Shown here: piece by piece, positions 12,149-43,129 of the stretch
Layout of the letters: every line of letters begins with the position of its first letter
Numbering within the stretch: position 1 is the first letter of the stretch
Source of the DNA: Torpedo marmorata
Taxonomy: Eukaryota
Assembly: GCA_977017645.1 (NCBI GenBank)
Contig: OZ360245.1
Span: 40,486,001 to 40,550,000 of the forward strand
DNA: 64,000 nucleotides
Reading direction: 5' to 3'
The notes under the pieces: generated by a model
Database searches by the model: none
Seen by the model: only the letters and a program-made list of their open reading frames with translations
Told to the model about the DNA's origin: nothing
Made by a program: the position numbers and the translations under genes

Positions 12149-12229
12149 TCAAAATCCAAATATTCCCCCAACCGTGGAGGCGATGACAACCCCCAGCACC
12201 ACACAGCATATAATGATCATAATCTTCTT
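12149..12229 (-). CDS. stx1a: Syntaxin-1A canonical terminal TM exon ('10b'), KKIMIIICCVVLGVVIASTVGGIFGF*
   Basis: Acceptor ctacag|AAG, classic KKIMIIICC transmembrane segment, TGA stop at 12149-12151. Confidence 0.96.
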   Translation of the reverse strand, partial: KKIMIIICCVVLGVVIASTVGGIFGF

Positions 12230-13974
12230 CTGTAGCCCCCAAATCCAAGCAGCGTGGCAGGAAGAAGAGGAGAAAGTGTTAGTTCTGAGATTTTATTTAC
12301 ATTTAAATAAAGGAATCTTGAAATAAATCAGGGTCTTTACAGAAGGGCAGATGAACAATTCCAACAGATAACCTTCCCTTTACATTATAAAAATGTTCTT
12401 ATTGCTACCAACTGTCCCCGTGTTACAAGCCCCACATTTCAAAAGACCCTCAACCTTTCTGACCCCTTTAAATAAGTCCCTCATACAAACCTCCATTATA
12501 CCACACATCACTTAGAATAAATATGACACCACATATTCCATCATACTTCAAATGTATCACATGAAAATCCATTCTCACAATAGCCAACTGCTCATAACAG
12601 ATGCAACCTTACATTAACAGCACACCCACTTCATGTTTAACGTCTTACATTAATAAGTACCTTGCGTTTTTAAAAGCTCATTCATGACACTTTTCGTATT
12701 TAAGTAACCAGAAGCTGCAGGGATGTCAGGAAGTTCATTGTCATTTTTTTTTAACCTTTAACCACGATGTAAAATGTTTATACACCGTTGAGTTCTAACT
12801 GGCATCTTAGCCAGCTGGTAATGCAAAGACTCGTCTGTTTATTTCTGTCAAGTTTGCATATAATTGAAAAGCTTGGCTTTGAGAATAAGACTGACATTCA
12901 GAATTCAAGTTGGTTCAATTCTGGGTTGGTGTTAACATTTTAAGGAATAATTCCTTTTATGGGTATGAGTGTCCAAATGTGTGCACACGTGTCTACGTGG
13001 GAGTAAAGTGCATGTCTGTACGTAGGAATGTTATTCCCAATCCGACTCCCATCATCAGGCACCATACAGCATTGTGACACAAAATAGATTTACTGTTCTG
13101 TCCGTGAAGATCTAGACAAAAATTAAGGCCTGAACTTCCTTCCATTCCCTGACGCCAATGGCATTATCCAGCGTCTCCAACTTCTGCCAGTCTGTTGGAG
13201 AAGCTCGATGAATTTCTAGAGTAAGTCACCCTTCACCTCGCACACAGGTTGTACAAGTTTTAATAGCACTGCATTTTTAAAAAGCAGCCATATGCACATG
13301 CAAAATTGCGAGCCAATTATTCAGAAACAGATGAACAAGGCGAGAAATGTAATGCAGATGCAGGAAGAAATGGCTAAGATATAGAAAGTTATGTCTCCTG
13401 CATAACAACTGCACTATCCACATATATTAAGTAGTGCTGTAGTTTTACAGCTATAATACTGTTCCAGTAACACATTCATTAAAGTGATGGAAAAAGGAAA
13501 GAGGATCCATGCTGTAACACAATGCATTTTTCCCATGGCTATATATTTTTTTTTAACCTTTGAGAAGAAATGTATTATTTTTATTGCACAGTGAACACAT
13601 TTGTGCTTTTCCACAGAGTCCACTATTGTTTGGGCAGCTTCACTTATTCTGTTATTTGACAGCAGTCCAGTAACTTGTGTCACAGTTGATACTTTGATCG
13701 ATTAATATTTGCATTTTTACGATTTTACCCTGGTCATTATTTTCTTTAAAAACAATTTTCTACATAGTAGTATATATCCATTTAGAAATATTGACAATGT
13801 ATCATTTCCCATTAGAATGGTGTAAAACAAGCAGACGTGATGCAACTACAAACTAATGTGTGAGTTTTATTTTTCGGTTGTAAAATTAATTCTCTTTGAA
13901 CATCTGTGATGATTCAGCATTACCCTGTATTTCTTCACTATGAAATCAAGAAATAAATAATCAAGAAATGCATT

Positions 13975-14135
13975 TGATTAGTCAGGGTGTTTCTTGATTC
14001 ATTAGAGGGTGGCAAAGGTTATGGGGAGAAGGCAGGAGAATGGGGTTGAGAGGAAAAATACATCAGCAATGATTTGATTGGCAAAGCCTACTCGATGGGG
14101 CAAATGGCCTAATTCTGCTCCTACATCTTATGGCC
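13975..14135 (+). mobile_element. CR1 3'-end fragment
   Basis: aaaggttatggggagaaggcaggagaatggggttgag...caaatggcctaattctgctcctacatcttatgg is a typical CR1 terminus. Confidence 0.7.
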
Positions 14136-15119
14136 TTTGCAATATTTTGTCATGTACATAAGCTATTGAAAGGCAGCACAGTATCCTGGATTAGTTGGGG
14201 TGAAAGTATAGTGAAGTGTACCACATCTGATCACTACCCAATAACTCTGTCCTGGTTCATATGAATGAACCAGGGATGTAATAACAGATATTATGCTTCT
14301 TCATACACAAAGAGTCACACAGACTATTAAGGCGGGATACTGGAAGGCAGATGGTTTCCACTGTATTTTAGCCCCAGCAAGGAGGATTTATAATGTGGTA
14401 AAAATACTGGATCTCTAAAATTTCATTAATAATTATAGTCAGAATTATTCTCAAAGCTCCACCAATGCAAATGTTGTGGTTAGAAGCTCTGCAAATGTTA
14501 CTTGCACCTCTAGCATTTTCCATTCTTATTTTGTGGGTTAGATATCAGATTTAATATTAATATTTCCAACCATGAAGGTGACTATTAAGGCTAGTATGGT
14601 GAGCAGATAAATATCAGTTGAAACTTAATGTGTAGAAACAGGAAGAGGTTCACTTCTGTAAGAGGTGTAGAGCAACACAGTCGGATGCACGAATATTTAA
14701 AACTGGAAGGGCCATGCGAAAAAGTAGTAAAAACAAAATGGGTTCAAAAACCAAAGGTAATGCTAAATGTGTGTGAGCGAGTGGTTGCACTGCATTCAAA
14801 ACATGGCCCCCAATTTAGTCAGGACGACTTGGACAAGAACTTAATGGTCAGTGCAAAATAAGTTTATGCTGGGAGTGAGAGGTTTTAGAGGTGATGAGAC
14901 AAGAGCAATTTTTAATTTTACCTGTAATACAAAACTCTAGGGGAACTGTAAGATGAATTTTGATCATATAAGGAGAAGGTAATTTGATTAGTATACTGGA
15001 TTCACAATACTGTATTATAAATTCAAGATCATATGGTAGGTTAGAATATTTTTCATACAGGGACTGTTGGGTTAACCTTTTTCAGATGTATAAATTTGAA
15101 TATACAATTTGAATCTTCT

Positions 15120-16325
15120 TGTTTGCAAATGAAGACATTCCAGTATCAAGTACCTCGTATTTCACCTTGGGAGCCGACAACCCATTGGTATGAGCAATGA
15201 ATTTTGCAATTTCAGGTAACTCTTACCGCCTCTTCCCGTCTCTCCTTCTGGTCAACTTCTGCTCGTCCCATACTTGCGCTCCAGCCCCCCACTCCCACTG
15301 TACACCCTCCCCCATGTTGACCTTTCTGCTCTTCATCTCTTCCCTAATGGTTCTCATTATCACCTTCCTCACTGATCAGATTCCAGTACAGGCATACCCT
15401 GTATAACACGGTTTTGTATAGCGCGGGTTTTGATATAACACGGTTTATAATTTTAATATAATAATAACCAAATATTGTTAAATTTTATTAATATTGCATT
15501 ACCAACAGTGGCACAATAATTTAACAATGCTCGCCGATTTTTTATTTGAAACTTTGGACTGTGACAATGTGAACTTGATGATGAAACTCTCATTGAAATG
15601 GATCAACAATTTTTATATGAAGATGAGCTGCAAAATGAAGATGTTAATGAAGTGCCAATGAAAGAATTCACCTTAGAGAAATTATCAACGTTTATTGGAA
15701 AAATCAACGATGCTTGCGATTACCTTATGGATGTAGAACCAAACATCGAGAGAAGCATTAGAGTTCGGCAAGAATTGCAAAATGCTATTCGATGTTATAA
15801 AGATATGCATGATGAAAAAAAAAACTAAAGAAGTGCAAACTACAATAGACAAATATTTTCTTAAATAAACAATGTTCACTTATTGCCAATAAAGATCTTT
15901 GTCATTTTTCAGTTTTATATATCCCTTTTATATATTTTATGCACATTTGCATAAGAGTTCTAGGTAAAAGAATAAATAATTTTAGGATTGGAACGTATTA
16001 CATTAAAGTGCATTGTAATAATGCTTTGAACAGTGCGGTTTTCCATAACTGAACTTGCTTGGAATGTATTACCCGTTTTATACAAGGTATGCCTGTACTT
16101 GTAGCCTGTGTGTCCTTGCTTTGCACCCTCCTGCCCCTGGCTCCATCTGCCTATTTGTTCCTCAAGGAACAAATATCACACCTGCTTCCGTTTTCCAATT
16201 CCACCCCTCCCTCCACCTGGCTCCTTCTGCCCATCATTCCTCACCCCTCCTTGGTCCACCTATGACCTAACAGCCCCTCTCTCACTGTTTCCCCTCGCCA
16301 CTTCGATATTCCTCCACTCACCCCT
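15120..16325 (+). mobile_element. Degraded Penelope-like 3' region interrupted by a Tigger derivative
   Basis: cctcgtatttcaccttggg...caacccattggtatgagcaatgaatttt..aatttcaggtaa followed by C/T-rich tracts on both sides of 15389-16095. Confidence 0.5.
15389..16095 (+). mobile_element. Internally deleted Tigger/pogo DNA transposon retaining the transposase C-terminus
   Basis: TA|caggcataccctgtataacacgg ... ccgttttatacaaggtatgcctg|TA. ORF 15598-15828 (FTLEKL..DVEPNIERSIRVRQELQNAIRCYKDMHDEKK) continues after a frameshift in the A-run as QTTIDKYFLK*. Confidence 0.88.
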
Positions 16326-16429
16326 CAAAAGATACTGCAGCAATTTATTATTGGTCCCAGCATCCCCACATATTCCTGCATCTGTGTGTTTCATTGTTTC
16401 ACAATTTCCAAGGATCAATAATTTTACTT

Positions 16430-16668
16430 TTTAACATAATGGATCTGACTGGCGAACCTGTGTTCCACTATAAAATTAGGTTACAGTAGTTTTGTTTAGA
16501 GTGACATTCTCCTTACTTTATCTTTTTCTTCCTTCTTTCTTTTTTCGGGAGGGTTAGGGAAGGTGGAGGGAGGGAGGGGAGGGTGAAAATGTATCACATG
16601 TAATCGGATAATTTTGCATTTTAAACTATGATTTAAAATCTTTTAAATAAAATATTTTTTTTTAAAAA
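16430..16668 (+). mobile_element. L1/Tx1-like LINE 3' UTR fragment
   Basis: Same pyrimidine tract, G-rich tract, tatcacatgta and aaataaaat architecture as the 3' ends at 48100, 55830 and 61800. Confidence 0.7.
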
Positions 16669-17689
16669 CCTATATTTTTGGGCTTAATGGCCTGGATTTT
16701 CCAAAGTTCTCATTATTACTGTTGGGAAACTGGGATACTCACGCAACAGGGGAAAGTAATGGAGATGGGCTCATCCACTGTGGAGCTATTTTACAGGTTG
16801 ATCTTAAGGTATTTTCCTGGGGCCAATTTGCTTTGATCTGTGTGTCAGAGAATATCAATTGAACTGTGGCTCTATTTTTAGCAGATCAATGAATTGGTGC
16901 ACATGGCCCATCTGTGAATATTTGCAGTGGATTATGTTAAACAACAGTTGGCCACATCTTCCTAGGTTAAATGCCCTTGCTCACTGATGACTTCGGTGCC
17001 AACTGTGCACTTACTTTTTGCTGATCCTTTAATGTCAACATTCTGTTTTGACCCATCCTGTTCTAGAGAGGCACTGCACAGCCACAGTCACATGATGCAA
17101 TGGTGAATTCTGACAAACTCCGCAAACAAAAACGCTGAGTGAAAAATCTGTCAACTAGTAAAGTTACATCCCAAGCTTTACCAGCTGTCAAGAACTATGA
17201 ATTCTTCTAAATGTCTCTGACATTCAGGAAAATCCAAATTCAATCAAACAACACATTTAAAAATAAAATGTTAAAAATAAAGAAATCACTTAAAACACTT
17301 TAAAATATTTTAAAAACATGAACACAAACTTAATGTATCCAATATTATGTGAATTGCCTTGCTCTTCTCTCTCATACTTGTTTCTCTCTATTCAGGAGTA
17401 AAGGCTAGCGCTTCCTAATGCAGGTTCAGTGGAAAGTTTTCCCAGCGCAATTGCAGGGCGGGGTCTTCTGAAAGTTCACAGATCACTGGTAGAGTCCATA
17501 AGAAACAGTGAGGAAACTGCCAGCAGAATTGGCCGAGGAAGTTGGAGACTCTCACAATTGTGCAGGAATCCCCCAGACTCCTAACACTTGGGAGTTAATG
17601 CTCAGTTTAAGCAATCTCAGACTAGTGTCTGTAGGAGACCTGAGGTCATGCTACATTTTAAATAAATGACCAAATTAGCCATTGGGAAT

Positions 17690-18560
17690 GTCCAAAAGTA
17701 TTGTTTATGTGGACCTCCAGGGATGTTTCAGTAAAAGACAGCTAAATTAGAAACTCATGGAATTGAAGGAGAATTTAGCAGTTTAACATACAGACTGAAC
17801 GGCAGCAAACAAGTGGTAGGGTTAAAGGTGGGTATTTCATGTTGGCAGCATGACTAAAATTGGCATTGAGTTTGCAAAGATTTATTGTACTTCGTGACAA
17901 GATACAAAACAACATATTTAATTTGCCTGACATAAGGACATGCAAAACTGGAAGCATTAGAGATGAGAGCCTTAAATTATAAAGAGCTAATGGATTAAGC
18001 AAATGGGCAAAACAGGATTGACAAGACTCGAGAGAATACATACTGGATGTTGTTAAACCAGAAACAGTGGAGATCCAAAGAGGATTGGATAAATCATTAA
18101 AATGTCACGGACGGGTACAGAAAATAATAAGGCAAATGGAGTACTGGCTTTTACATTGAGCGAACTAGAATGAACGGGGGTTCTCAAATGTTAAGATTAG
18201 GGTTAGACCGCGCCTGGAGTACTGGAAGCAGTGCCTTACACAGATAGTTTTGCCTTGGAAAGAGCAGATTTATCACAATAATACCTGAATTCTGATATGA
18301 AAACCGAATCCCAACAATTACATTGCAAATTGAAATTATTCAAATTGCATTTCATACCATTTGGAAAGTCAAAGGGTTACCTGAAGCAAGCTTTCAAAAT
18401 ATTAAAGGGAAAACACACTAAATAAAGCATTCCCACTTATTTTCTTGTTTAGGATGAAATGGCAGAGTCTAAACATTGAAATCGGGAGTGAACCCAGAAA
18501 ACATTTATACTCATAAGTGACAGTAGAAATCTGTAACTGTTAAATTTAGACATGAGGTTG
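17690..18560 (+). mobile_element. Highly degraded CR1-like LINE remnant
   Basis: Residual motifs tttatgtggac, aaatttagaa..catggaattgaagg-like, aatttgcctga, gttagaccgcgcctggagtactg; no intact frame. Confidence 0.55.
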
Positions 18561-19506
18561 TTAGTTTTTGTTTAAAGCAATGGAATCTTCCCATTAGACA
18601 ATCCCCTGGGATTGACAAAGACTTGCCTCCACTCTGGTTCTGAGGTACCTGGTGAGACCAGTGTGGGACCAATAGCCTGCACCAACCATTGGGCAGGAGG
18701 TTGCTGATGGTGTGGATGGGGACGTAGTATGTGAAGCGTTTGGTTCATTCTACTGATTATGCTGGCATCTGCGTGTTGCCATCTCATGATCTGGAGGTTC
18801 CCAGTGCCCTCCTGATGGTGCCTCTTCAACTTTAGCGGTCAGGGGCTAGGAATTCCTAGGAATTGGTGGCATTTTTTTCCCAAGCAGGTGGGTATATGAG
18901 GTAACAGATCTGCCATGTTCTTGCTGAATGCCAGAGCAGGATCGGGGAACTAAATGGGTGTGTTCCATTACCACATTGATCTTGTAAAATTTGCAGAGAG
19001 AAGGGGTCTGAGAGGGGTGGGAAGAGAGATGAAGGTGGAAGGATAGAGAAATGAGTAAAGTAGCAAGATGGGAAGGAAAGAGAAAGGGTTTGGGAAGTCA
19101 TTGATTTAGAAATTATTATAAAAATCTGTTGACTGCAAAACATCACCTGTATTCACAGTGACTTAATGTTGGTAAAATCATGGATCATAGTCTGTTCAGG
19201 TTCAGACTAATAATGTTTCTTAGTATTGAAATACAAGAGTGTGTAGTTTGAGTCCTGATGTCGCTCTTCAGTTTAGAGAGGTGCCAAAGCAAACAAGGTC
19301 CACACTGGAGAGTAGAACTCAAACCGGAATAATGGTCTTGGTGCCTACAAGCAGGCGCTCCTGGAATGTCCTAGTGTTGGCAAAATGAAATGAAAATGTC
19401 CAGCAATGATGAGCTGTCCTTCCTTTTCACACCAGCTTTCATGGAACAAGAGCCCATCTTTAGTCTCAATCAGGATGGTTCGGTGGGATCATGCAACTTT
19501 GTAGCA

Positions 19507-19584
19507 TTAACTGAGAGACACAGCCAAAGCAATGATGATAACCAACAGTACTATTGCAATGCAAATTCCAATAAAGATCATTTT
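19507..19584 (-). CDS. stx1a: Alternative terminal transmembrane exon ('10a'), KMIFIGICIAIVLLVIIIALAVSLS*
   Basis: Strong acceptor ttttcttcccttcctacag|AAA, phase 0 matching both exon 9 versions. It reads Lys plus 24 uncharged, mostly hydrophobic residues then TAA, which is a typical syntaxin tail anchor. Confidence 0.83.
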   Translation of the reverse strand, partial: KMIFIGICIAIVLLVIIIALAVSLS

Positions 19585-19621
19585 CTGTAGGAAGGGAAGA
19601 AAACAATCAGATGAGGCTCAG

Positions 19622-19627
19622 CATGCA
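19622..19627 (-). promoter_or_regulatory. UGCAUG (RBFOX) motif about 38 nt upstream of the alternative TM exon; a second copy lies at 19490-19495 just after its stop
   Basis: catgca on the + strand at both positions. Upstream or exonic position is the established repressive geometry. Confidence 0.45.
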
Positions 19628-20909
19628 GAAAAAAACAGCAGCAACAAATAAAACATTCAGAATGTGATGCAGAGTCTTGGTTGACCACTGAGCGTCTTTC
19701 ACATATTGGAATAATATGCTCTCAAACTGTGACAGGATGTCAAAATTGTCCTTGCGTGCCAATGACTCAAAGTTGGACAATGTTGGACGACCAATTGAAT
19801 AACCAGATGTAAAATTGTGCCAGTGAGTGTTAAGAACATCTGGTCCCCACAGAGCACTCAGAAATGTCTCAAAATGAGAACCTCCAGATACCATGGACAT
19901 TGACTGCAGAGTGCTTGGGTGTCGGGTCAGGGATATTGCCTTTCAGTTTGGATGGACTCAGCGACCAGCTGTAGACAGGCATCATTAGAAGACTTCACTG
20001 CTTTCCTTACAAGCACTAAGTATCCTTCCCACAGATCAATGCCCAGCACCAATAATGTGGCCAGGCAATATAAAGCTGGTGGTACAACCAAAATAGAAGG
20101 ATGTGCATACTGTCCCTCTCTGCTCTCTCCAGGGCAATGAGGTGACAATCAGGTTCCCCGTTCAGCACACCATCCACCTTGGGGATCAGCTTTACTTAGA
20201 TAGGCACAGAGTTAACCTTAAAAAGCACACAGCAGCAAAACTCTCAGGAAACATTTAGCATTGGATGCAAGCAACAATCACCAAGCCTTAGAATATCTGC
20301 ATTTTAACAACAGTAGAGAGATTGTGGCAAAATGATAACAAATAATCTATGAGTATCTGAAAATGCACCTGTAACTTGCTTTATGCATCGACGCGCAACT
20401 GCTTATCTGTTAGCGTCAGCTTGAGAGATGCCAGCACGCATGTCAATGGTGGCAGTGATTACAACAATCATTGATAAAGTGATATGGGGGTGGGGTAGGG
20501 AAGGGGGAGTGGGATGTTGATCTGCTTGCACTGTGCCATCACTCTAGGTGGTTTCATTGAAAAGGCATTGCAGATCAATCACTTGCCTTTGTCTCCGTTC
20601 TCTGGTGTGAGAGTACAGTATTGGCAGCTAGTGCTACACGCCCAGAGACTAAACTGGTCAGCCTGTCTACCTTCAATTTTCTATCGTCCCAGAAATAAAG
20701 GTGGAGATAAATCCCCAAATGAAAGGCAAAATTATGAAGTAGCAACAAAGGCCATAATGTGTGAGCATCAACAACGACCTGGCGCATACAGTAAATGCAA
20801 TTCCCTTCCAACGCCCAGGACATTAAACATTTAATCCAAAACATTAACTCTGTTTCTCTTTCACAGATGCTGCCTGAATTGCTGTGTATTTCCAGCATTT
20901 ACAATGCAT

Positions 20910-23180
20910 AAACGTGCTGGAGAAACTCAGCAGGTCACGTAACATCCATAGGAAGTCAAAGAAAATCAAAATTTCGGGCCTGAGCCTTTCATCAGGAACG
21001 TTTCTGATGAAGATCAGATTTTGAGAGTGCAAAAGCTTTATGTTCCTGTTAGGTTAAAAGGAGGGGCAAAAGGTTTGAGAGAGCCGTGGTTTTCGAGGAA
21101 TATTGGAAACTTGGTTCGAAAAAAAAGGGAGGCATACATTAAGTATAAGAAGTATGGAATTAAGGAGATGTTTGAAAAATACATTGAATGTAAAAGGAAC
21201 CTTAAGAGAGGAATTAGGAAAGCTAAAAGAAGGTACGAGGAGACTATAGCAAGCAGGGAAGCAGGGTGAAAATTAATCCAAAAGGTTTCTACAAATACGT
21301 TAATGGTAAAAGGAAAGCGAGGGACAAAATTGGTCCCTTAGAGAATCAGAGCGGAAAACTGTGTGTGGAGCCTAGAAAAATGGGGGAGATATTGAACAGT
21401 TTCTTTTCTTCAGTATTCACCAAGGAGAAGGATATTGGGATATGTGAGATAAAAAAAAGCAAATTGGGTAAATATGGAGAATATAGTGATTACGAAGGAT
21501 GTAGTGTTAGGGCTTTTGAGGCATATAAAGGTGGATAAGTCTCCGGGACCCGACGGGATCTTCCCCAGGACCTTGAGAGAAGTAAGTGAGGAAATAGCAG
21601 AGGCTCTGACGGTGATTTTCCAAATGTCATTAGAGATGGGGATAGTGCCGGAGGATTGGTGTATTGCGCATGTGGTTCCGTTATTTAAAAAGGGTTCAAG
21701 GAGGAAGCCTGGCAATTATCGGCCTGTAAGTTTGACGTCTGTGGTAGGTAAATTAATGGAGAAAGTTCTTAGAGATAGTACGGTACTTGTAAATATCTGG
21801 ATAGACAGGGTCTGATCAGGAACACTCAACACGGATTTGTGAGCGGAAGGTCCTGTTTGACCAATCTGATTGAATTTTTTGAAGAGGTGACTAGGAATGT
21901 GGATGAGGGTAGCGCGGTGGATGTTGTCTATATGGACTTCAGTAAGGCCTTCGATAAGGTACCACATGGAAGGTTAGTTAGGAAGGTGCAGTCTTTAGGT
22001 ATAAATTTTGAGATAGTCAAATGGATTGAACATTGGCTGAAAGGGAGAGGCCAGAGAGTGGTAGTGGATAATTGTCTGTCAGGTTGGAGGCCGGTGACCA
22101 GCGGTGTGCCTCAGGGATCTGTATTGGGCCCATTGTTGTTCGTTATATACATTAATGATCTCGATGATGGGGTGGTGAACTGGATTAGTAAATATGCAGA
22201 CGATACTAAGATAGGTGGAATAGTGGATAATGATTGCAGAGGGATTTGGGCTGCTTAGAAAAGTGGGCTGAAAAATGGCAAATAGAGTTTAATGCTGATA
22301 AGTGTGAGGTGCTTCATTTTGGTAAGAAGAATCAGAACAGGACATACGTAGTAAATGGGAGAGCATTGATGAATACAGAAGAGCAGAAAGATTTAGGAGT
22401 AACGGTGCATCGTTCCCTGAAGGTAGAAACTCATGTGAATAGGGTGGTGAAGAAGGCTTTTAGTATGCTGGCCTTTATCAATCATTGCATAGAATATAGG
22501 AGTTGGGAAGTGATGTTGAGATTATATAAGGCATTGGTGCGGCCTAATTTAGAGCTCTGTGTGCAGTTCTGGTCGCCAAATTATAGGAAGGATATCAACA
22601 GAGTGGAGAGAGTGCAGAGAAGATTTACCAGAATGTTACCTGGGTTTAAGCATCTAGAGTACAAGGAGAGATTGAGCAGATTAGGTCTTTATTCTTTGGA
22701 GCGTAGAAGGTTGAGAGGGGATTTGATAGAGGTATTTAAGATTATGAAAGGGATAGACAGAGTGGATGTGGATAGACTATTTCCATTAAGAGTAGGAGAG
22801 ATTGAAACAAGAGGACATGAGTTAAGAGTTAAGGGGCAGAGGTTTAGAGGTAACATGAGGGGGAACTTCTTTACTCAGAGAGTGGTAGCGGTGTGGAATG
22901 AGCTTCCGGGAGAAGTAGTGGCGGCAGAGTCAATTTTATTATTTAAGAAAAAGTTGGACAGGTATATGGATGAGAAGGAGGTGGAGGGTTATGGGCAGGG
23001 TGCAGGTAGGTGGGACTAGAGAGGAGTGTTTGGTTCGGTGCGGACTAGAAGGGCCTAATGGCCTGTTTCCGTGCTGTAATTGTTATATGGTTATATAAGG
23101 GCTCAGGCCTTAAATGTTTATTGCATTTTACTTCCTCTGGGTGCTGCGTGACCTGCAGACTTTCTCCAGCACTTCTGTGT
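20910..23180. mobile_element. Palindromic Penelope-end element (arms about 20910-21000 and 21001-21012 plus 23097-23180) split by a CR1 insertion
   Basis: Removing 21013-23099 restores cctgagcctttcatcaggaacgtttctgatgaagggctcagg, and the two arms are reverse complements. Confidence 0.75.
21013..23096 (+). mobile_element. 5'-truncated CR1 LINE, RT and C-terminal region with a few frameshifts
   Basis: ORFs 21021-23019 contain [40 protein letters not shown] and SLERRRLRGD. Tail gttatatggttatat; possible AAG TSD. Confidence 0.96.
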
Positions 23181-24031
23181 ACTGCACTCGATCCTTGTTT
23201 AACTTTTATTTCCAGCATTTTCTGTTTTTATCCTGGGTGTTTTGTAAGCGGTGATTAAAACTTAGTAAAATAGATGCATGGACAATTATTGAAAGTACAT
23301 TGTCATATTATTGCATCCGTGAATGCAAATTGGCAATATAGATCTTTGTATTATTTCCCATTCTGGCACCATGACCCGCCTGATTATTACATGATAGGTG
23401 GGAGGGAAATCTACACTATCGTAGAACTTGTGCACTGGTAATTAAGGCCCATGTTTACAAATTGTTTATTTACTAACTATTTAGTGATCATATCTTTCAT
23501 TACTATGATACTGTCTACCTCCTCTACTACCATCCTTAGAAATTTGATACAAAGCTCGAGCATCTATTTTTCTCACCCAGAGGGAAAATGTTCTGGTAGG
23601 AACTAAATCCAGGCATCTACCATTATTTTGGGTGCATTAATATTTTTCGATTCAGTTTTAATGAGTACATATTTGTCACTGTTATTCAGACGTTTTGAGC
23701 ATTTCTTTTCACCAACTGTTTTTGCTCTTTTTAATGTTTTTTAAAAGCTTTATTGTATCAATATAAATTAAAGCTTCCCAGACATTTCCTGGACCATTTT
23801 ACTATCATCACTATCCACTTACATTTTCCAAAAAAATGAAAGTAATTTTAAACATGCCTTTCTGACACTTGTAGCATTGACACACTATTAGGAAAATCCA
23901 TTGATTTGCTAATCTAACAGTTTTTAAAAAATCCAGTTGTCTTCAATATCATCATTGCCATTTGCCAGCTTGGGACCACCCTGCTTCACTCCAGGCTTAG
24001 AACTGTGGAAGGGCGCTGGAGAAATTGTTGT

Positions 24032-24555
24032 AAGGAGAAGCGGAGGAGATGACCCACGGGACGGAGACCACGGCAGCAGACCAGTGAGGGGCTCTGAGGC
24101 TGAAGGACCAGTGCATGCGGCGGGCTGCTGGCGACTCGAGGCGAGAAACCCGCGGAGGCTGTGGGGCTGCTGGAGACTGATGTCGGGGGACTCACGACGG
24201 GCTGCGGACTGCTGGAGACTGGCTGGAGGAGTACCAGGTATTGGAACCGGGATGCGAGGGGGTGCCGAGGGCGCCTTGACCGTGTTGGAGGTTCGGATCT
24301 GGAGCTCGGGTTGCCATGGTTTGGACTGGACTCTGTGTGGCTGCAGAGGCTGCGGAAGCGCTGGAGGTGAATCTACGGACACTCGGTGATTCTGGGGGGA
24401 CTCTCTTTTGCTTCTCTTTCTCTGACTGTAAGGAATGTTAGAGGCGCTTAGGCAATTTCTGCCGGTGGCGAATCTGTCTGCCTTGCAGCAGGCAAAAAGT
24501 AATTTCATGGAATATGACACTGTCTTATTACTATGACAATAAATTGAATCTTGAA
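24032..24555 (+). mobile_element. 5'-truncated copy of the GC-rich non-coding retroposon
   Basis: Closely similar to 43560-44086 and 53105-53518; ends tgacaataaattgaatcttga. Confidence 0.85.
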
Positions 24556-24825
24556 ATTTTGTACATTTGAGGTTCTTGAGGATGTTACAGAGGAAACTCT
24601 TGTAGATCAGATGGAAAGGCAGGGGAGCATTAGCAGGTGAAATTTAATTTGAGGTGATGCATTTTGAAAATTCAAACAGGAGTAGGACATGTACAGTAAA
24701 TGGAAGGCCGCAAGAAATGTTGGAGTGGCCTAGGGTCCTAGTTCCCCGAAAATGGCAACACAGGTTGATACGCATAAGACACAAATGCTCTCATTGGTCA
24801 GGGCGTAGAATGTACAAGTTTGGAC

Positions 24826-24955
24826 AAGGGCGGCACGGTTATCGTAGCAGTTAGCACAACACCATTACAGCGCCAGCGACCCAGGTTTGAATTTGGCGCT
24901 GTCTGTATGTCCTCCCTGTGTCTGCGTGGGTTTCCTCCGGGTGCTCGAGTTTCCA
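24826..24955 (+). mobile_element. Partial V-SINE (tRNA head and core) following a degraded CR1 remnant at about 24630-24825
   Basis: gggcggcacggtt..gtagcagttagc...ggtttgaattt and gtgtctgcgtgggtttcctccgggtgctc. Confidence 0.75.
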
Positions 24956-25669
24956 GATTCTGTTGTGTGCTACAAATGTTTAATTTAGATTGATAACCAT
25001 TTGGGGTTTAGATGCAATCAGATAACTGTGCCCAAAATATGCTTTTGTTGGGTTACTTCACAAAGCTATTAAAATTAATCTGCATAAAATAAAATCTTCA
25101 ATGAATCAGACCAATGGGCAATAGAGGAGAATATAATCTTTTGTTCATCAAATCTACCAAGAAATATTTACTGCATTTTTATTAATGGAACTTAAAGTGT
25201 GTTTATCATCAAAAATATTTTTTAACCTGTGTCAATTCTTCCACCACTGAGTAACCCGATATAAAGTCAATAAAAATATACTGTATTACTTCATCAGTGT
25301 GCATGCGATAGTTCTATATTTTTAATAATTTAAAAACAATTTTTAAATTTCCATGAGCTCAAATTGAAAAGCCACCCTTAATTAAGATAATCACTACATC
25401 CTTCTGATATCAACTCTGTGTGCATGTGTGGCAGGGGTAGGACATATATTTATGGGTGGAGCTTTAATGACATTTTTGAACTGATTTGGGGAATTCAACC
25501 CAATTGGGCTGATGTAAATAAGTGGAGAAACGTCCGCTTGATTTTTACAAGCATGTCGGAATTGGTTTCTGGGACACGGTAGGACACAGCAAGCATTTAC
25601 CATTGCAGCCTCGATGATGGAGGTATGAACACGGAGTCATGCAGTATAGAAATAGCACTACAAAAGAGC

Positions 25670-26710
25670 ATCAATAGGAGCAGGAGTAAGGCCATCTTCC
25701 AGCCTGGTCTGACTATGGACTCAGCTCCACACACCCTCAATTCCCCTGTTATCCAGAAATCTGTCTGTGTTTTAAATACATTTAATGAGACAGCTTTGTT
25801 TTGTTTTGTTAGGCAGAAAAATCCACAGATTCACTAATCTTGGGGAGAAGCAGTTCCTCCTTATCTCTGTCCAAAGTCTACTCATCCAAATATTGAGGCT
25901 ACGACACCTGCCAGTGGAAATGACCTCCCTGCTTTTACTACATCAATTTCTCTTATAATAATATTCCTCCCTCCTCCTTCTAAACTCCACTGAATATAGT
26001 CCCTGGCTGCTCAATCTCTCCTCACAGGCTAACCCCCTCATTTCCACAGTCAACCTGGAAAACCTCCTCTGCTCCACCTCCAAAGTCTGCCTATTCTTTC
26101 TCAAGTAAAGAGTTCAGAACCGCACACGTTATTCCAGATGCAGCCTCACCAGTACCCTGTATAGTTGCAGCAGAAACTCCCCGCTGACAAGTTCAATCTC
26201 TTCAGCAAAGGACAACATCCCAATTACCTTCTTGATTAACTGCTGCATCTGCAAACTAACTTTTCCAAATTCGTGCACAAGCATTCTCAGATCTCCCTGC
26301 ACAACAGCATGGTGCAAACTTTCACTGTTCAAATAATGTACAATTTACTATTTCATTCCAAAGTGGATGACCTCAAATTTACCAGCATTGTCTTCCTGTG
26401 GCCAGACCCTTGCCCACTCACTTAACCTATCTATATCTCTTTACAGACTGTCCCCTCTGCACAATTTACTTTTCCACTCAATGTAGTATAATCAGCAAAC
26501 TTAGATATGCTACACCTCATCCTCCCTCAAAATCATTTATGTATATTGTGAACAGTTACGGGCCCAGCTCTGATCTCTGCATCACCCACTATTCACCAAA
26601 TGCCAACTAGAAAAAACACGCATTTATCCCAATTCTCTGTCTCTATCGGTTAACCAATCCCCGATCCATGCCAATGTATTACCTTCAACTCCCTGTATCT
26701 TTATTTTATG
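25670..26710 (-). mobile_element. Degraded CR1 LINE 3' region
   Basis: Minus-strand remnants LQLYRVLVRLHLE and QGDLRMLVHE, plus agcaaactt (KFA) and a CR1-like terminus near 25680. Confidence 0.75.
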
Positions 26711-26944
26711 CAGAACCAGTGTTTTGTAAAATTGCAACATAAATGTAGACATAGAGCTTAGTAACAGGCCCTTCCAGCCCACGAACCCGTCCCTCCCCCC
26801 CCACCTTCAAATACACCAATTAGCCTACAACCCCTGTACGTTTTTGAAGGGTGGGAGGAAATCCAGATTCTGACACAGACACAGATCTCAGCATTTGCAT
26901 TGTATTTGCATGTTACAAATTCTGAAGCATTTCTTTAGCAATGA

Positions 26945-27125
26945 AAACAGAATGCTGGAAGAACTCAGTGAGTCCAGCATCTGTGGAGAAAAATGATGCA
27001 TGTGACTTGATGCAGAGTCTTGCCTCGAAATGTTGTACCTTTTCCCTCCTCAGATGCTGCTTGACCTGCTGAGTTCTTCCTGTTTAGCTTTTTTTGTTCC
27101 AAATTCCAGCATCTGCAGTCTCTTT
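26945..27125. mobile_element. Short palindromic Penelope-end repeat; a partial V-SINE tail lies at 26745-26862
   Basis: tgctggaagaactcag...cagcatctg and cagatgctgc..ctgagttcttcc form inverted arms, ending ttccagcatctgcagtc. Confidence 0.6.
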
Positions 27126-28114
27126 TGACGTCTTCCAGCATTTCTTTAGGTTTCATTCCCGTTCGCCAGACAACGCATGTCACATTGCTTAATGAACAGG
27201 TTTAAGAGCACTCTTACCCTTCAGTGATATTTGGTCTACTTCTCACTCATGTCAATAGAGCTTATTTTAAGTGTGTACATGGATTGCGATTACTGCAATA
27301 AAATACAGCGATATGTAGGTGAATCAGAATTGACTAAGATAAGATAAATTCTGGAGATGTATGGATTATGTTGGAATAGATAAAATCACAGTAAATTAGT
27401 GGCACTAAGTTGATTGTACTACTAACTGTTAAGTCAGGACAAAGCAGGTAGATTTTGCCGTGTGATCTTTAGGTGGGCTGGAGTTAATAACATGTAGCAG
27501 AATGATTTGAGATTGATTACAACAGACAGACTTTAAGAGAAATTATTTAATTGTACTGACTGTTTTTGCTCACAGCTGCAAAATGAATATTTTCTCTCTG
27601 ATGACTGTAAAACATCACCAAAAAGGGCCCAGGCCTACTGGTGCAGTCCAAATCCACACGTAATCGGACAGATTTTTAACTCTCCAATGGCTAATAGAAG
27701 AAATTTTTAAAAAAAACTTGCTGGTACAAGGAAGATGCATATTGATGGATTTGCTGAAAATGTTTGCTAATTACACTAGTCAAGAAAATGGGAAATTAAA
27801 ACAGAATATGACATCTGTGCCTGACCTGTCATGGACAGTTAGGCAAATTGCACTGGAGAGATTTGATTTGAAATTATTCATTTGAGATAGACTATAGCAG
27901 AGTGAATGATATCAGGCTAATATTATTCATAAGGCACTGCAATGGTACTGATTTAACAAGGACATATTCTCTGCTGGGAGGCATCAGGGTATTTGAAATG
28001 CATATACTATTGGACAAACTGTATCATCATAGATCAGGTCACACTTATTGATTTATATTAGAGATAAATTTTAACAGAGACTATATGATGTATTTGAATA
28101 TTAAATATATTCTC

Positions 28115-28412
28115 CTCAGGCTCAAGAACAGTTTCTCAATGGTTATCCCCTTACTACCCTAATCATAAACTACTCTGGTACCACAAAATGACCTCTTTGC
28201 ACGATTGAAACACCACTTCATTTTCCCTTGTGCTACTGTATTTGTGAATACCTATTATTTGTCTTTTATATTTATTAACTCCACAGTAAATGCAGTAATT
28301 TAATGTATAGTGTTGGACTTATTTTTTAATAATAAAGTACCTGTTTGGCTGCAGAAAGCAGGAATTTCAGTGCACATTGTACATGCACGCGTATGACGAT
28401 AAACTCATAATC
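28115..28412 (+). mobile_element. Degraded Rex1/Babar-like LINE 3' end
   Basis: caggctcaagaacagtttct (RxKNSF) and gcaggaatttcagtgca...tgacgataaa resemble the tail of 38671-40010. Confidence 0.5.
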
Positions 28413-28852
28413 ATTATTTAAGCAGGATAAATTGTACGAAGGATATATTTACAGGGAATAAATTGCATTGAGTTAGATACTTTTAGTATTAGTAAATTCT
28501 CAAGATGAATGGTAAGGGGGTGGGGGGAAGTAAGCCTGATTATTTTCCCTTCAGTTCCTCATCACTGAATTATGATGTCACCACATGCAAAGTTGTTATT
28601 TCAAATTCTACCAATCCCTCTGCAAATAGAGATGGCACCATATTATGCATTACTAAGAGTGCATTGGAATACAAACCGTTGGTTGTTTGTGATCAGAGGC
28701 ATGAACGAAAATGGCTTCTCAGAGGATCAAGTAACAGGAATGAACGATCCACAGAATGCAGCAAGTGCATGCATCTCTGCTAGGGATCCACATTGGAAAG
28801 TTTTGCCTTCCCTCTGATCATGTTAACTGATATTCTTTAACATACCTCACAG

Positions 28853-29120
28853 GAGACTGCAGATTCTGGTCTCTGAAGCTAAACACAATCTGCTGGAGGA
28901 ACTCGGCGGGTCAAGCAGCTTCAGTGGGAGAAAAAGAATTGTTGACGTTTCGAGCCGAAATCTTCACCAGGACACCATCAAATAAATGGTAAAGGGAAAG
29001 TGAGACCTGATTTTTTTTTCCCTTCAGTTCCTCATGTCAGTTCCTGATGAAGGGTTTTAGTTCTTTTTCTCCCACTAATGCTGCTTGACCCGCCGAATTC
29101 TTCCAGCAGATTGTGTTAGG
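28853..29120. mobile_element. Inverted pair of Penelope-end repeats with a captured local sequence in the loop
   Basis: aacacaatctgctggaggaactcggcgggtcaagcagc..agtgggagaaaaagaa pairs with ttctttttctcccactaatgctgcttgacccgccgaattcttccagcagattgtgtt. Confidence 0.8.
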
Positions 29121-29122
29121 TG

Positions 29123-29236
29123 TAAAACACAAAATTATGCAGACAATGCTGGAGAAACTCAGCATGTCAAACAGTGTCCTTTATATAGCAAAGATAAAGA
29201 TACATAACCGACGTTTCGGGCTTGAGCCCTTCGTCG
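29123..29236 (-). mobile_element. Penelope terminal repeat fragment, same family as 35620-35725
   Basis: Reverse complement gacgaagggctcaagcccgaaacgtcggttatgtatctttatc matches gacgaagggctcagacctgaaatgttggttatgtatctttatc. Confidence 0.8.
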
Positions 29237-29978
29237 CAGGATCAATCGATGCATCACATACCCCCTCACATGAACTGTGCATCAGAGTGTGTTATGGTGC
29301 TTTGTTGTGAATAAATAGCTTTACTCAGAAAAGTAAACTTACACCATAATCCAAATTTCATGTGTGTTTGGGATGTCAGATTACTTTCTTTTTATTACTT
29401 ACTTTAGTTTTTAGTTCCACTTTTATAAAAAGATGTTCTGTGTTATTACACTGTGTGGCAAATAATCCTTCCTTAACAATAGTATCAACACTGATGAGAG
29501 GAGAAAATGATAGGATAGACCATAATTTACACCACAATTCTTCCTAAATTACAACCATAGCGAGAGGTATAATCCTGCATGAGGCACTGGATCAAATGCT
29601 CCTGTACATATATTTTTTTAATGTGTGCATCTGGAATTATTTTGGTATTGATTGATAAATACTCACATCTTTTAAACATGTGTATAGCTGTCCAGCAGCA
29701 CAAGGTGATGTATGCTCTTCTGAACTGTTGCTAGCAGGTACATTTCTGTCAAAGACTCACATCCCAAAGCCAATTGCATTGTGTGCAGAGCACAACCATA
29801 TTGCGTACCGGATACATAGCCCTTTACAAATAATGTTACAGCATGGGACGGGAGCTGACCAGCTGATGAATGACTGCTGCAGACAGTCACACAATGAGAT
29901 GAATACAGGATTGAGAAACTTTTCTAATATGGACTCTATTGATGGCATTGGGGAAGCACAATGAGGTCGTCCACACCA

Positions 29979-29984
29979 CATGCA
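29979..29984 (-). promoter_or_regulatory. UGCAUG (RBFOX) motif 25 nt downstream of canonical exon 9
   Basis: catgca on the + strand at 29979-29984. A downstream intronic position is the established enhancer geometry for RBFOX. Confidence 0.5.
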
Positions 29985-30008
29985 GGGCTGGTGACGTGCA
30001 CCACTTAC

Positions 30009-30119
30009 CCGTCGCGCTTTACTCTGGTACTTAACCGCCTTTTTCGTGTCGGACACTGCCCGCTCTACGTAGTCAACGGAATGCTCAACGTTGTATTCGA
30101 TCCTGTCTATCATCTCTCC
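30009..30119 (-). CDS. stx1a: Syntaxin-1A canonical exon 9 ('9b'), [37 protein letters not shown]
   Basis: 111 nt, acceptor tctttcctcgatgccag|GGA and donor CGG|gtaagtg, near-identical to syntaxin-1 residues 227-263. Confidence 0.97.
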
Positions 30120-30194
30120 CTGGCATCGAGGAAAGAGCAGAGACGTGTGAAAATAACAGAGGTGTTTCAGGTGCCGTTACCTCCGGTCACTTAC

Positions 30195-30305
30195 CCGTCT
30201 GCTGGTACTCTGAAAATTAACTGCTTTTTTTGTGCTGTCCTTTGCCTGTCCGATGTAATCAGTTGCATTGACAACATTCCTCTCAATACTGTTGGCCACA
30301 TCACC
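30195..30305 (-). CDS. stx1a: Duplicated alternative exon 9 ('9a'), C-terminal half of the SNARE motif, [37 protein letters not shown]
   Basis: 111 nt (same as canonical exon 9), phase 0/0, strong acceptor ttttccctttgtttcag|GGT and donor CGG|gtaagtg, no stop codon, 17/37 aa identical to the canonical exon with heptad layers kept. Not present in the ORF track. Confidence 0.85.
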
Positions 30306-34397: not shown

Positions 34398-34535
34398 CTG
34401 GCTTTCCACCAGCATTGCCATGTCCATGAACATGTCGTGCAGCTCACGGATACAGTTCTCCAGTTTGATGATCTCATGGTGTCGTGTTTCAATCTCATTA
34501 AGAGCCTGCTTCGTAATGTTGGAATCCATTATGAT
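34398..34535 (-). CDS. stx1a: Syntaxin-1A exon 8, N-terminal half of the Qa-SNARE motif, [46 protein letters not shown]
   Basis: 138 nt, acceptor tctctcccttcag|ATC and donor CAG|gtaag, ending on the zero-layer Gln. IIMDS and MFMDMA favour STX1A over STX1B (IKMDS/MFVDMA, recalled). Confidence 0.96.
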
Positions 34536-43055: not shown

Positions 43056-43129
43056 CCCAGATGTGAAGATAGCAGGATTCCCACTCTCCAGCATGTCTTC
43101 CAGCTCTTCATTTGTGGTCGTTCTTCCAG
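43056..43129 (-). CDS. stx1a: Syntaxin-1A internal exon (equivalent to mammalian exon 7), (T)GRTTTNEELEDMLESGNPAIFTSG
   Basis: 74-nt exon, acceptor ttgattccag|CT and donor GGG|gtgag. The translation matches the syntaxin-1 linker including the LE motif (ELEDMLE), and ESGNPAIF is 1A-like. Confidence 0.95.

What the first reader, a model, noticed from the sequence alone, without database searches (positions are those of the whole stretch)
12149..30305. 9a-9b-10a-10b layout may be the ancestral two-cassette syntaxin later partitioned among STX1 and STX2
Against human STX2 as I recall it ([37 protein letters not shown]), exon 9a matches 22/37, including IERNV.NATDY and AK..TKKA. That is more than the 17/37 it shares with its own neighbour 9b. 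Exon 10a resembles the recalled STX2 alternative tail KLMFIIICVIVLLVILGIILATTLS, while 9b and 10b are the neuronal STX1/STX3B type. Inference: the exon duplication predates the vertebrate STX1/2/3 gene duplications, and this lineage kept both cassettes in stx1a while mammalian STX1A and STX2 each kept one. Coupled splicing (9a+10a versus 9b+10b) is predicted.
Basis: inference. Interest (0 to 1): 0.85.

Follow-up and report, generated by a model that had tools for sequence, protein, structure and literature searches.

The report
Fish syntaxin-1A keeps ancient alternative exons
A ray's main nerve-fusion gene, syntaxin-1A, carries two alternative versions of its last two coding exons, an arrangement shared with other fishes and with human syntaxin-3 and apparently lost from this gene in land vertebrates, which suggests that the syntaxin family partly arose by sharing out the splice forms of one ancestral gene.

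Summary
This minus-strand stx1a gene of a ray-like genome has exons 9a and 9b (111 nt each, 75 nt apart) and terminal exons 10a and 10b. One related-species contig splices 9a straight to 10a. The layout is not peculiar to this lineage: 9a occurs in stx1a models from sharks, coelacanth and ray-finned fish, but in 0 of 70 tetrapod STX1A proteins seen. Human STX3 has the same published order, 9A-9B-10A-10B. In an exon tree 9a groups with STX2, STX3A and STX4, and a 9a+9b clade is rejected (p-AU 0.009; 37 columns). Duplication before the STX1 versus STX2/3/4 split is therefore the best reading. Corrections: STX3 kept both cassettes, STX2 kept two transmembrane exons, and 10a is not of the STX3A class, which points to three ancestral transmembrane exons. 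Strict coupling is not shown, because fish gene models contain all four pairings. Exclusion probably rests on branch points close to the 9a donor, with RBFOX-type motifs favouring 9b+10b (inferred). The 9a form resembles a published STX1A/STX2 chimera that unclamps spontaneous release.

The parts
43056..43129 (-). stx1a exon 7 (74 nt, shared)
   Evidence: tblastn with fish STX1A; AG/GT ends read
34398..34535 (-). [quoted passage not shown]
   Evidence: its 46 residues are identical to Narcine STX1A-like P0001
31496..31552 (-). cluster of four GCAUG (three UGCAUG) in intron 8, about 1.2 kb upstream of 9a; candidate RBFOX element
   Evidence: 4 in 60 nt; 0 of 200 simulated sequences of the same dinucleotide make-up reached 4. 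Function inferred.
30195..30305 (-). [quoted passage not shown]
   Evidence: spliced to 10a in contig 27 of run X3
30120..30194 (-). 75-nt intron between 9a and 9b; no AG from nt 15 to 73; all branch-point-like adenosines lie 47 nt or less from the 9a donor
   Evidence: steric reading inferred from the ~50-nt threshold in PMC7969005 and bioRxiv 133215
30009..30119 (-). exon 9b, neuronal STX1-type half of the SNARE motif (111 nt)
   Evidence: (37/37 to bird STX1A and mammal STX1B)
29979..29984 (-). UGCAUG 25 nt downstream of the 9b donor; candidate RBFOX enhancer of 9b
   Evidence: a Cys-Met dipeptide (TGY ATG) at about the same place in 2 of 3 fish read-through models
19622..19627 (-). UGCAUG 43 nt upstream of the 10a acceptor; candidate RBFOX silencer of 10a
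   Evidence: function inferred
19507..19584 (-). exon 10a coding part: transmembrane tail of the STX2B-like (beta) class
   Evidence: joined to 9a in run X3
17886..19506 (-). probable 3' UTR of exon 10a, with poly(A)-signal hexamers at 17922 and 17886
   Evidence: hexamers; X3 contig 27 and X16 contigs lie on 17836-18174 and 19174-19584. The end is not mapped.
12149..12229 (-). exon 10b coding part: neuronal STX1/STX3B (gamma) transmembrane tail with the double cysteine

Best explanation
This is stx1a with a tandemly duplicated exon 9 and two alternative last exons. [quoted passage not shown] History (inferred): exon 9 was duplicated once, before the gene duplication that separated STX1A/1B from STX2/3/4. 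Copies were then lost differentially. Fish STX1A and all STX3 kept 9a and 9b; STX1B and tetrapod STX1A kept 9b; STX2 and STX4 kept the a-type. The transmembrane exons fall into three classes whose order is consistent wherever it can be read (alpha, beta, gamma): STX2 has alpha+beta, STX3 alpha+gamma, fish STX1A beta+gamma. The ancestor therefore probably had three. Splicing mechanism (inferred, about 0.5): both exon-9 copies are in frame, so decay of a frameshifted message cannot enforce the choice. Branch points 47 nt or less from the 9a donor hinder joining 9a to 9b. RBFOX-type sites downstream of 9b and upstream of 10a and 9a bias RBFOX-rich cells such as neurons to 9b+10b, which gives preferential rather than absolute coupling. 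Function (inferred): 9b+10b is the clamped neuronal syntaxin. 9a+10a is a still fusion-competent, STX2-like form, probably for non-neuronal or less tightly clamped secretion.
For: Shown: exon anatomy. A spliced 9a-10a junction in contig 27 of run X3: record 26-139 lies on 30308-30195 and 140-497 on 19584-19231. An a-type exon 9 is present in 51 of 153 classified STX1A-type proteins, all from fishes, and in 0 of the 70 named as tetrapod. Human STX3 has the same order with a 119-nt intron between 9A and 9B (supplement of PMC8373072). Exon-9 tree: the a-type group (fish 1A-9a, STX2, STX3A, STX4/hagfish) has support 95/87 with all 65 rows (2 long invertebrate rows fall inside) and 93/91 after dropping 11 long rows; vertebrate b-type has 95/80; a forced stx1 9a+9b+1B clade is rejected, p-AU 0.0086. 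Position 232 is Asn/Ser in 30 of 30 a-type rows, Arg/Lys in 14 of 14 vertebrate b-type rows, and Arg in 17 of 21 invertebrate rows. The tree of exons 1-8 puts 1A/1B apart from STX2/3/4 (96/89), so the layout occurs on both sides of that split. Three transmembrane classes: STX2B scores z 4.4 and 12.1/25 identity against fish 10a, versus 7.9 against gamma and 6.0 against alpha; window 10a scores z 0.8 against alpha. 9a keeps small or hydrophobic residues at all 8 core layers (layer numbering recalled). It carries N231, R235, V238 and K248 plus S232 and D249, at the six surface positions tested in PMC10957171, where the STX2-type changes raised spontaneous release and D231N/R232N shrank the releasable pool (sections 7 and 10).
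Against: The exon tree has only 37 columns, and a-type exons evolve faster, so attraction between long branches cannot be excluded. A 3A+3B clade is not rejected (p-AU 0.19). No lamprey or amphioxus STX1 was obtained; the only cyclostome row is one hagfish protein labelled syntaxin 4, whose position in the exons 1-8 tree is unresolved. The transmembrane tree is short and its bootstrap had not settled; the trout STX3 alternative tail and the STX4 tails do not sort cleanly. This genome's own stx2 shows one exon 9 and one alpha-type tail only, with no beta tail in the 78 kb scanned. Nine fish models join 9a and 9b in tandem, and a turtle STX3 model joins 9A and 9B, so steric exclusion is leaky or the models are wrong. 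Introns near 75 nt are normally spliceable (recalled). The ray stx2 exon 9, which has no partner, also has a UGCAUG at +15. Run X3 is flagged by the tool as probably DNA and comes from another organism, so its junction could be a processed copy. No 9b-10b junction was listed in any of the 4 runs.
Confidence: 0.72

Rival explanations
1. Exon 9 was duplicated independently in STX1A and in STX3. In each gene the upstream copy drifted or converged towards the STX2-like, non-neuronal state.
For: Arthropod Syx1 shows that this exon duplicates repeatedly: dragonfly, isopod and shrimp models carry two or more copies, and these sit with arthropod sequences in the tree (84/76). A 3A+3B clade is not rejected (p-AU 0.19). 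The alignment is short.
Against: A 9a+9b clade for stx1 is rejected (p-AU 0.0086). The same order and a similarly short intron occur in both genes. Derived residues are shared on both sides: Asn/Ser232 in all a-types, Val248 in 13 of 14 vertebrate b-types but 2 of 21 invertebrate rows.
Confidence: 0.13
2. The duplication is much older (bilaterian), and the arthropod second copies are orthologous to vertebrate 9a, as implied by the 'Bilateria' date given for the STX2 and STX3 events in PMC8373072.
For: That paper reports equivalent exons in Daphnia (passage; supplement rows). Holding arthropod second copies with the a-type is not rejected (p-AU 0.165).
Against: In the free tree the arthropod extra copies group with arthropod first copies. 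They keep Arg232 and the arthropod His236, and the divergent copy lies downstream of the conserved one, the reverse of the vertebrate order.
Confidence: 0.08
3. The a-type cassette evolved in the STX2/3/4 lineage and reached fish stx1a later by gene conversion or unequal exchange between paralogues; STX3B arose by the reverse transfer.
For: Fish 9a rows are not monophyletic in the free tree but interleave with STX2 rows, although their monophyly is not rejected (p-AU 0.35).
Against: It needs two transfers into matching positions, plus transfer of a distant terminal exon (10a lies 10.4 kb from 9b). stx1a and stx2 lie on different contigs here (C59 and C11).
Confidence: 0.05
4. 9a and 10a are decaying, rarely used relics.
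For: 9a evolves fast, strongly so in percomorph fish (Toxotes branch 0.76), and several shark models run from 9a into the intron and stop.
Against: The frame is open and the splice sites are intact. 9a is 30-33 of 37 identical across rays and sharks and has been kept from sharks to teleosts. The core layers are preserved in the ray, and a spliced contig exists.
Confidence: 0.02

Closest known systems
Human/mouse STX3A and STX3B (exons 9A/9B, 10A/10B)
   Same: Same order 9a-9b-10a-10b, both exon-9 copies 111 nt, short intron between them (119 vs 75 nt); 9a in the 9A class, 9b and 10b in the 9B/10B classes. STX3B is the retinal form and STX3A the epithelial one (passages of PMC8263458).
   Different: The host gene is STX1A, not STX3. 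10a is of the STX2B-like class, not the STX3A class. Tissue split and coupling are not shown here.
STX2A / STX2B (two alternative transmembrane exons)
   Same: An a-type exon 9 (22/37) and a downstream tail resembling 10a (12/25).
   Different: STX2 has a single exon 9 and no gamma tail; its upstream tail (2A) has no counterpart in this window.
SNAP25 exons 5a/5b and other tandem duplicated exon substitutions (OGDH 4a/4b, TPM1)
   Same: Homologous same-length exons that swap part of a SNARE helix (SNAP25; search listing and abstract start). RBFOX2 binds downstream of the second Snap25 exon and promotes it (passages). Branch points close to the donor enforce exclusion in OGDH and TPM1 (passages).
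   Different: A different gene. Here the internal pair is followed by a pair of alternative last exons, and neither mechanism has been measured.
Engineered STX1A-2(Cter) chimera (PMC10957171)
   Same: STX1A backbone with an STX2-type C-terminal SNARE half; the swapped stretch Q226-255 lies within exon 9 plus the last residue of exon 8.
   Different: The fish form is natural, also changes the juxtamembrane segment (2 Lys/Arg in 256-263 vs 4) and usually the anchor, and is untested.

Membership tests
STX1A orthologue (Qa plasma-membrane syntaxin) | SNARE domain with Habc region and transmembrane tail | tested here: met
   Pfam SNARE on 9a and 9b; exons of the N-terminal part lie upstream on C59; tails
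STX1A orthologue (Qa plasma-membrane syntaxin) | Shared exons group with STX1A, not STX1B/2/3/4 | tested here: met
   Window exon 8 is identical to Narcine P0001, which is 96% identical to coelacanth STX1A over exons 1-8. The window's own exons 1-6 were not put in the tree, and 1A is not resolved as one clade against 1B (52% of bootstrap trees).
STX1A orthologue (Qa plasma-membrane syntaxin) | Conserved neighbours (BUD23 next to STX1A; recalled for human, suggested for medaka by fused model P0092) | tested here: inconclusive
   The BUD23-like hit is on C11, not C59; no Pfam hit of note in the 62 of 105 plus-strand frames tested downstream
Tandem duplicated, mutually exclusive exons | Adjacent, homologous, same length and phase | tested here: met
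   111 nt each, phase 0, 17/37 residues
Tandem duplicated, mutually exclusive exons | Each copy is spliced alone and not together with the other | tested here: inconclusive
   9a without 9b seen in one contig; no 9b junction listed; 9 of 153 models join both copies
Steric (close branch point) exclusion | Branch point under about 50 nt from the upstream donor | tested here: inconclusive
   All motif-like candidates lie at nt 8-47; the real branch point is not mapped
STX3A/3B-type two-cassette syntaxin | Order 9a-9b-10a-10b with a short intron between the exon-9 copies | tested here: met
STX3A/3B-type two-cassette syntaxin | 9a of the 9A class; 9b and 10b of the 9B/10B classes | tested here: met
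STX3A/3B-type two-cassette syntaxin | 10a orthologous to STX3 exon 10A | tested here: not met
   10a scores z 0.8 against the STX2A/STX3A class and sits with STX2B
STX3A/3B-type two-cassette syntaxin | Coupled use (9A+10A, 9B+10B) with a tissue split | tested here: inconclusive
   One 9a-10a junction; mixed pairings in 10 automated models; tissues of the runs unknown

The most novel reading that the evidence does not exclude
The vertebrate STX1A/1B/2/3/4 family descends from one gene with two exon-9 copies and three transmembrane exons (alpha, beta, gamma), and each paralogue is a different subset: STX1B 9b+gamma; STX2 9a+alpha/beta; STX4 9a plus one tail; STX3 9a/9b+alpha/gamma; fish STX1A 9a/9b+beta/gamma. 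Fish use an RBFOX-governed switch in stx1a to make a natural STX2-like, weakly clamped syntaxin-1A, and tetrapods deleted it.
Probability: 0.4. Interest if true: 0.68.

Novelty: new variant of a known kind. Interest (0 to 1): 0.52.

Why it matters
If true, it is a clean case of splice forms being shared out among gene duplicates in the core fusion machinery. It would explain why STX3B looks like STX1 and why STX2 and STX3A look alike in their C-terminal halves. It also means zebrafish and other fish stx1a is not equivalent to mammalian STX1A: it can make an STX2-like form. That matters for fish knock-out and rescue work, and it offers a natural test of the residues that mouse chimeras tie to clamping of spontaneous release. 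The pieces are partly known: STX3A/B and STX2A/B are published and the fish isoforms sit in automated annotation. What I did not find in print is the fish STX1A cassette or the partition across paralogues (searches; open-access library only).

Tried and rejected
Lineage-specific duplication: rejected. Using raw identity as proof: rejected, because STX2 exon 9 is closer to 9b than to 9a. A third (alpha) tail in the window below 9b: none among 537 acceptor-anchored candidates. A second exon 9 or second tail in this genome's stx2: none in 100 kb fetched; 1887 candidates scanned below exon 9. stx1b, stx3 and stx4 in this genome: not found with four protein queries; the search gives lower bounds, so this is not evidence of absence. 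Region search with coelacanth 9a+10a to reach lungfish, amphibian or lamprey forms: 3 hits among 8 candidates (itself and two fish STX4-like proteins), uninformative. Sequencing runs: no RNA holder listed on record; 18 runs listed, 4 laid, all contigs. The joint table was filled by repeats (987 rows not shown), so junction counts could not be read and missing 9b or 10b junctions mean nothing. BUD23 synteny: not confirmed. Downstream plus-strand gene: not identified. Curtis 2008 (mouse Stx3 gene structure) is not held. PMC9741552 and the main text of bioRxiv 133215 do not mention syntaxins; the supplements of the preprint were not seen and may list STX genes. Earlier findings of this scan: nothing in 3 look-ups. 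Mammalian intron 8 could not be read as DNA. The short upstream extensions in mammalian models show no evident likeness to 9a by eye; this was not tested statistically.


Full report
1. What is in the sequence. The window is G000:C59:40486001-40550000 of a 6.2-Gb genome. A syntaxin gene runs on the minus strand: exon 7 at 43129-43056, exon 8 at 34535-34398, 9a at 30305-30195, 9b at 30119-30009, 10a at 19584-19507 and 10b at 12229-12149. Both exon-9 copies are 111 nt, phase 0 and open, with a 75-nt intron between them; they share 17 of 37 residues and 66 of 111 nt. The closest protein is a Narcine 'syntaxin-1A-like isoform X4', which carries 9a+10a. Exon 8 is identical to it, and its shared exons are 96% identical to coelacanth STX1A. 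The gene is stx1a of a ray-like fish.

2. Is it used? Four of 18 listed runs were laid, all as contigs. Contig 27 of run X3 (another organism, depth 8.5) lies with letters 26-139 on 30308-30195 and letters 140-497 on 19584-19231. That is the exact 9a-to-10a junction, skipping 9b and 10.6 kb, and the contig continues into the 10a 3' UTR. The tool flags X3 as probably DNA, so a processed copy is possible. A contig of X16 covers 10a and has 30 more letters; the depth in the exon-9 bin equals those 30 letters, but which copy they lie on is not shown. No 9b junction was listed. The joint table was swamped by repeats, so this silence is not evidence.

3. How widespread. Of 153 STX1A-type proteins that could be classified (from; tally), 28 have 9a+10a, 11 have 9a with another end, 3 have 9a+10b, 9 have 9a and 9b in tandem, 66 have 9b+10b, 7 have 9b+10a, 14 have 9b with another end and 15 have an irregular exon 9. 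Three of the 28 have a hybrid 9a/9b exon. All 51 with an a-type exon are from fishes: rays, sharks, coelacanth, sturgeons, eels, tarpon, bonytongues, catfish, carps, herring and percomorphs. None of the 70 named as frog, reptile, bird or mammal has one. In-frame read-through models put intron 8 at 108 nt in two finches and 114 and 144 nt in two lizards, too short to hold a 111-nt exon with its introns, so 9a looks deleted rather than decayed there. These are automated models, not read counts. Lungfish and salamander stx1a were not sampled.

4. What is known. Human STX3 has exons 9A/9B and 10A/10B, with 9A/10A and 9B/10B junctions measured in retina (passages of PMC8263458). The supplement of PMC8373072 gives 9A at chr11:59795372-482, 9B at 59795602-712, 10A at 59797283 and 10B at 59803218: the same order as here, with a 119-nt intron. 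The same table gives human STX2 one exon 9 and two tails, 2A at chr12:130796043-120 and 2B at 130791903-977. STX2 lies on the minus strand (recalled), so 2A comes first, and a grouper STX2 model runs the two tails together in that order. That paper dates the STX2 and STX3 events to Bilateria through Daphnia and lists no STX1A event.

5. Exon 9 tree. I took 65 exon-9 rows from the 274 proteins then held, the window and this genome's stx2 (one intended row failed extraction). Fish 9a, STX2, STX3A and STX4/hagfish form one group at 95/87, with two long invertebrate rows inside. After dropping 11 long rows the a-type group has 93/91 and the vertebrate b-type group (1A-9b, 1B, 3B) 95/80. Forcing 9a with 9b and 1B costs 33.5 log-likelihood units (p-AU 0.0086). 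Forcing 3A with 3B is not rejected (p-AU 0.19). Position 232 is Asn/Ser in 30 of 30 a-type rows, Arg/Lys in 14 of 14 vertebrate b-type rows and Arg in 17 of 21 invertebrate rows; position 248 is Val in 13 of 14 b-type rows and 2 of 21 invertebrate rows. A tree of exons 1-8 (33 rows, 201 columns) separates STX1A/1B from STX2/3/4 (96/89), with STX4 joining STX2 (98/94, long branch). The two-copy layout thus occurs on both sides of the deepest split, and one duplication followed by losses is the simplest account. Arthropod Syx1 models also show two or more exon-9 copies. They group with arthropod sequences and have the reverse order, so an independent origin is favoured, but orthology with 9a is not rejected (p-AU 0.165).

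6. Transmembrane exons. Thirty-six tails sort into three classes: alpha (STX2A, STX3A, this genome's stx2), beta (fish stx1a 10a, STX2B, the second grouper STX2 tail, more weakly hagfish and goby STX4) and gamma (STX1A/1B, STX3B, insect). STX2B averages 12.1 identities to fish 10a (shuffle z 4.4), 7.9 to gamma and 6.0 to alpha. Window 10a scores z 0.8 against alpha. The pairs alpha-beta (STX2), alpha-gamma (STX3) and beta-gamma (stx1a) are all consistent with one order, which suggests three ancestral tails. This rests on 25 hydrophobic columns and an unsettled bootstrap; the trout STX3 alternative tail and Mobula STX4 are ambiguous. No alpha tail was found in the window, and no beta tail in 78 kb below this genome's stx2 tail.

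7. How the choice is probably made (inferred). Co-inclusion of 9a and 9b would stay in frame, so another barrier is needed. The 75-nt intron has no AG between nt 15 and 73, and its branch-point-like motifs start at nt 6, 16, 25, 39 and 44, with adenosines at or before nt 47. That is under the roughly 50-nt steric threshold cited in PMC7969005 and bioRxiv 133215 (passages), though only narrowly for the most canonical site, and 9 tandem models argue for leakiness. UGCAUG lies 25 nt after the 9b donor and 43 nt before the 10a acceptor (each about 0.02 by chance per 50 nt at the window's rate), and four GCAUG cluster within 60 nt in intron 8 (0 of 200 simulations). RBFOX2 binding is enriched downstream of included and upstream of skipped exons (passages of PMC10676425), so all three placements favour 9b+10b where RBFOX is high. 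A Cys-Met dipeptide, which requires TGY ATG, appears at codons 10-11 after 9b in 2 of 3 fish read-through models and at codon 26 in the third. Against specificity: the unpaired stx2 exon 9 also has a UGCAUG at +15.

8. What the swap would do (inferred). Exon 9 spans rat STX1A residues 227-263. 9a keeps small or hydrophobic residues at all eight core layers (layer positions recalled), so it should still zip into a SNARE bundle. At the six surface sites tested in PMC10957171 (D231N, R232N, Y235R, E238V, V248K, S249E; section 10) the ray 9a has N, S, R, V, K and D. In that study the STX2 C-terminal half placed in STX1A cut the releasable pool from 0.5 to 0.2 nC and raised the spontaneous release rate 8-fold (section 7). 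9a also has 2 instead of 4 basic residues in 256-263, and 10a has one cysteine where 10b has two. The 9a+10a protein is best read as an STX2-like, less tightly clamped syntaxin on an STX1A backbone.

9. Verdict. It needs three corrections: STX3 is the published intact example, STX2 kept two tails, and coupling is at most preferential on present evidence. It is a new variant of a known kind. The fish isoforms already exist in automated annotation, but I found no paper on them or on the family-wide partition in seven searches of an open-access library. Papers seen: passages only for PMC8263458, PMC9741552, PMC11119284, PMC7969005, PMC10676425 and bioRxiv 133215; passages and supplement rows for PMC8373072; abstract and sections 7 and 10 for PMC10957171; search listings for the rest.

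Noticed in passing
window 10495-14119 (runs X1, X2): Contigs cover this stretch unspliced across the 10b acceptor (X2 record 19, depth 28, 14119-12130) while little or nothing is laid on 10a or exon 9. It may be an overlapping opposite-strand 3' UTR or a retained intron. A plus-strand acceptor-like site with a nearby poly(A)-signal hexamer lies at about 11388-11460.
   Followed up: partly
proteins P0011, P0050, P0083 (eel, two mormyrids): Models with a hybrid exon 9: the first 26 codons of 9a joined to the last 11 of 9b at the stretch the copies share. It could be a non-canonical splice or an annotation artefact.
   Followed up: no
proteins P0294, P0296 (Stegostoma); window about 19450-19380: Shark models splice 9a or 9b to a site inside the 10a 3' UTR, giving tail-less proteins; the ray has the homologous stretch. 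This recalls the soluble STX3S form.
   Followed up: no
proteins P0258, P0203, P0201, P0190, P0184: Arthropod Syx1 models (dragonfly, isopod and shrimp named; two unnamed) carry two or more exon-9 copies, apparently a separate duplication of the same exon.
   Followed up: partly
proteins P0262, P0276, P0224: On exons 1-8 alone STX4 nests with STX2. The hagfish protein labelled syntaxin 4 does not join STX4 but has an a-type exon 9.
   Followed up: partly
proteins P0103, P0104, P0111 (carps): One cyprinid stx1a copy has a diverged 9b (26 of 37 to the ray 9b in Labeo), where 9b is otherwise nearly invariant.
   Followed up: no
G000:C11:253428028-253437664 (L002, L006, L011): This genome's stx2 has a single exon 9 and one tail that mixes alpha and beta features; no second tail was found.
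   Followed up: yes
G000:C47:103291205-103292068, C11:117257641-117258486, C43:75055229-75056134, C39:24772204-24772527: Four apparently intronless syntaxin-like frames (STX11/STX19-like by recall); the C47 one ends in a cysteine-rich tail.
   Followed up: no
window 21000-23100, 33100-34200, 46241-47437: LINE-type retrotransposon remnants in the stx1a introns, recognised from translated frames and very high repeat depth.
   Followed up: no
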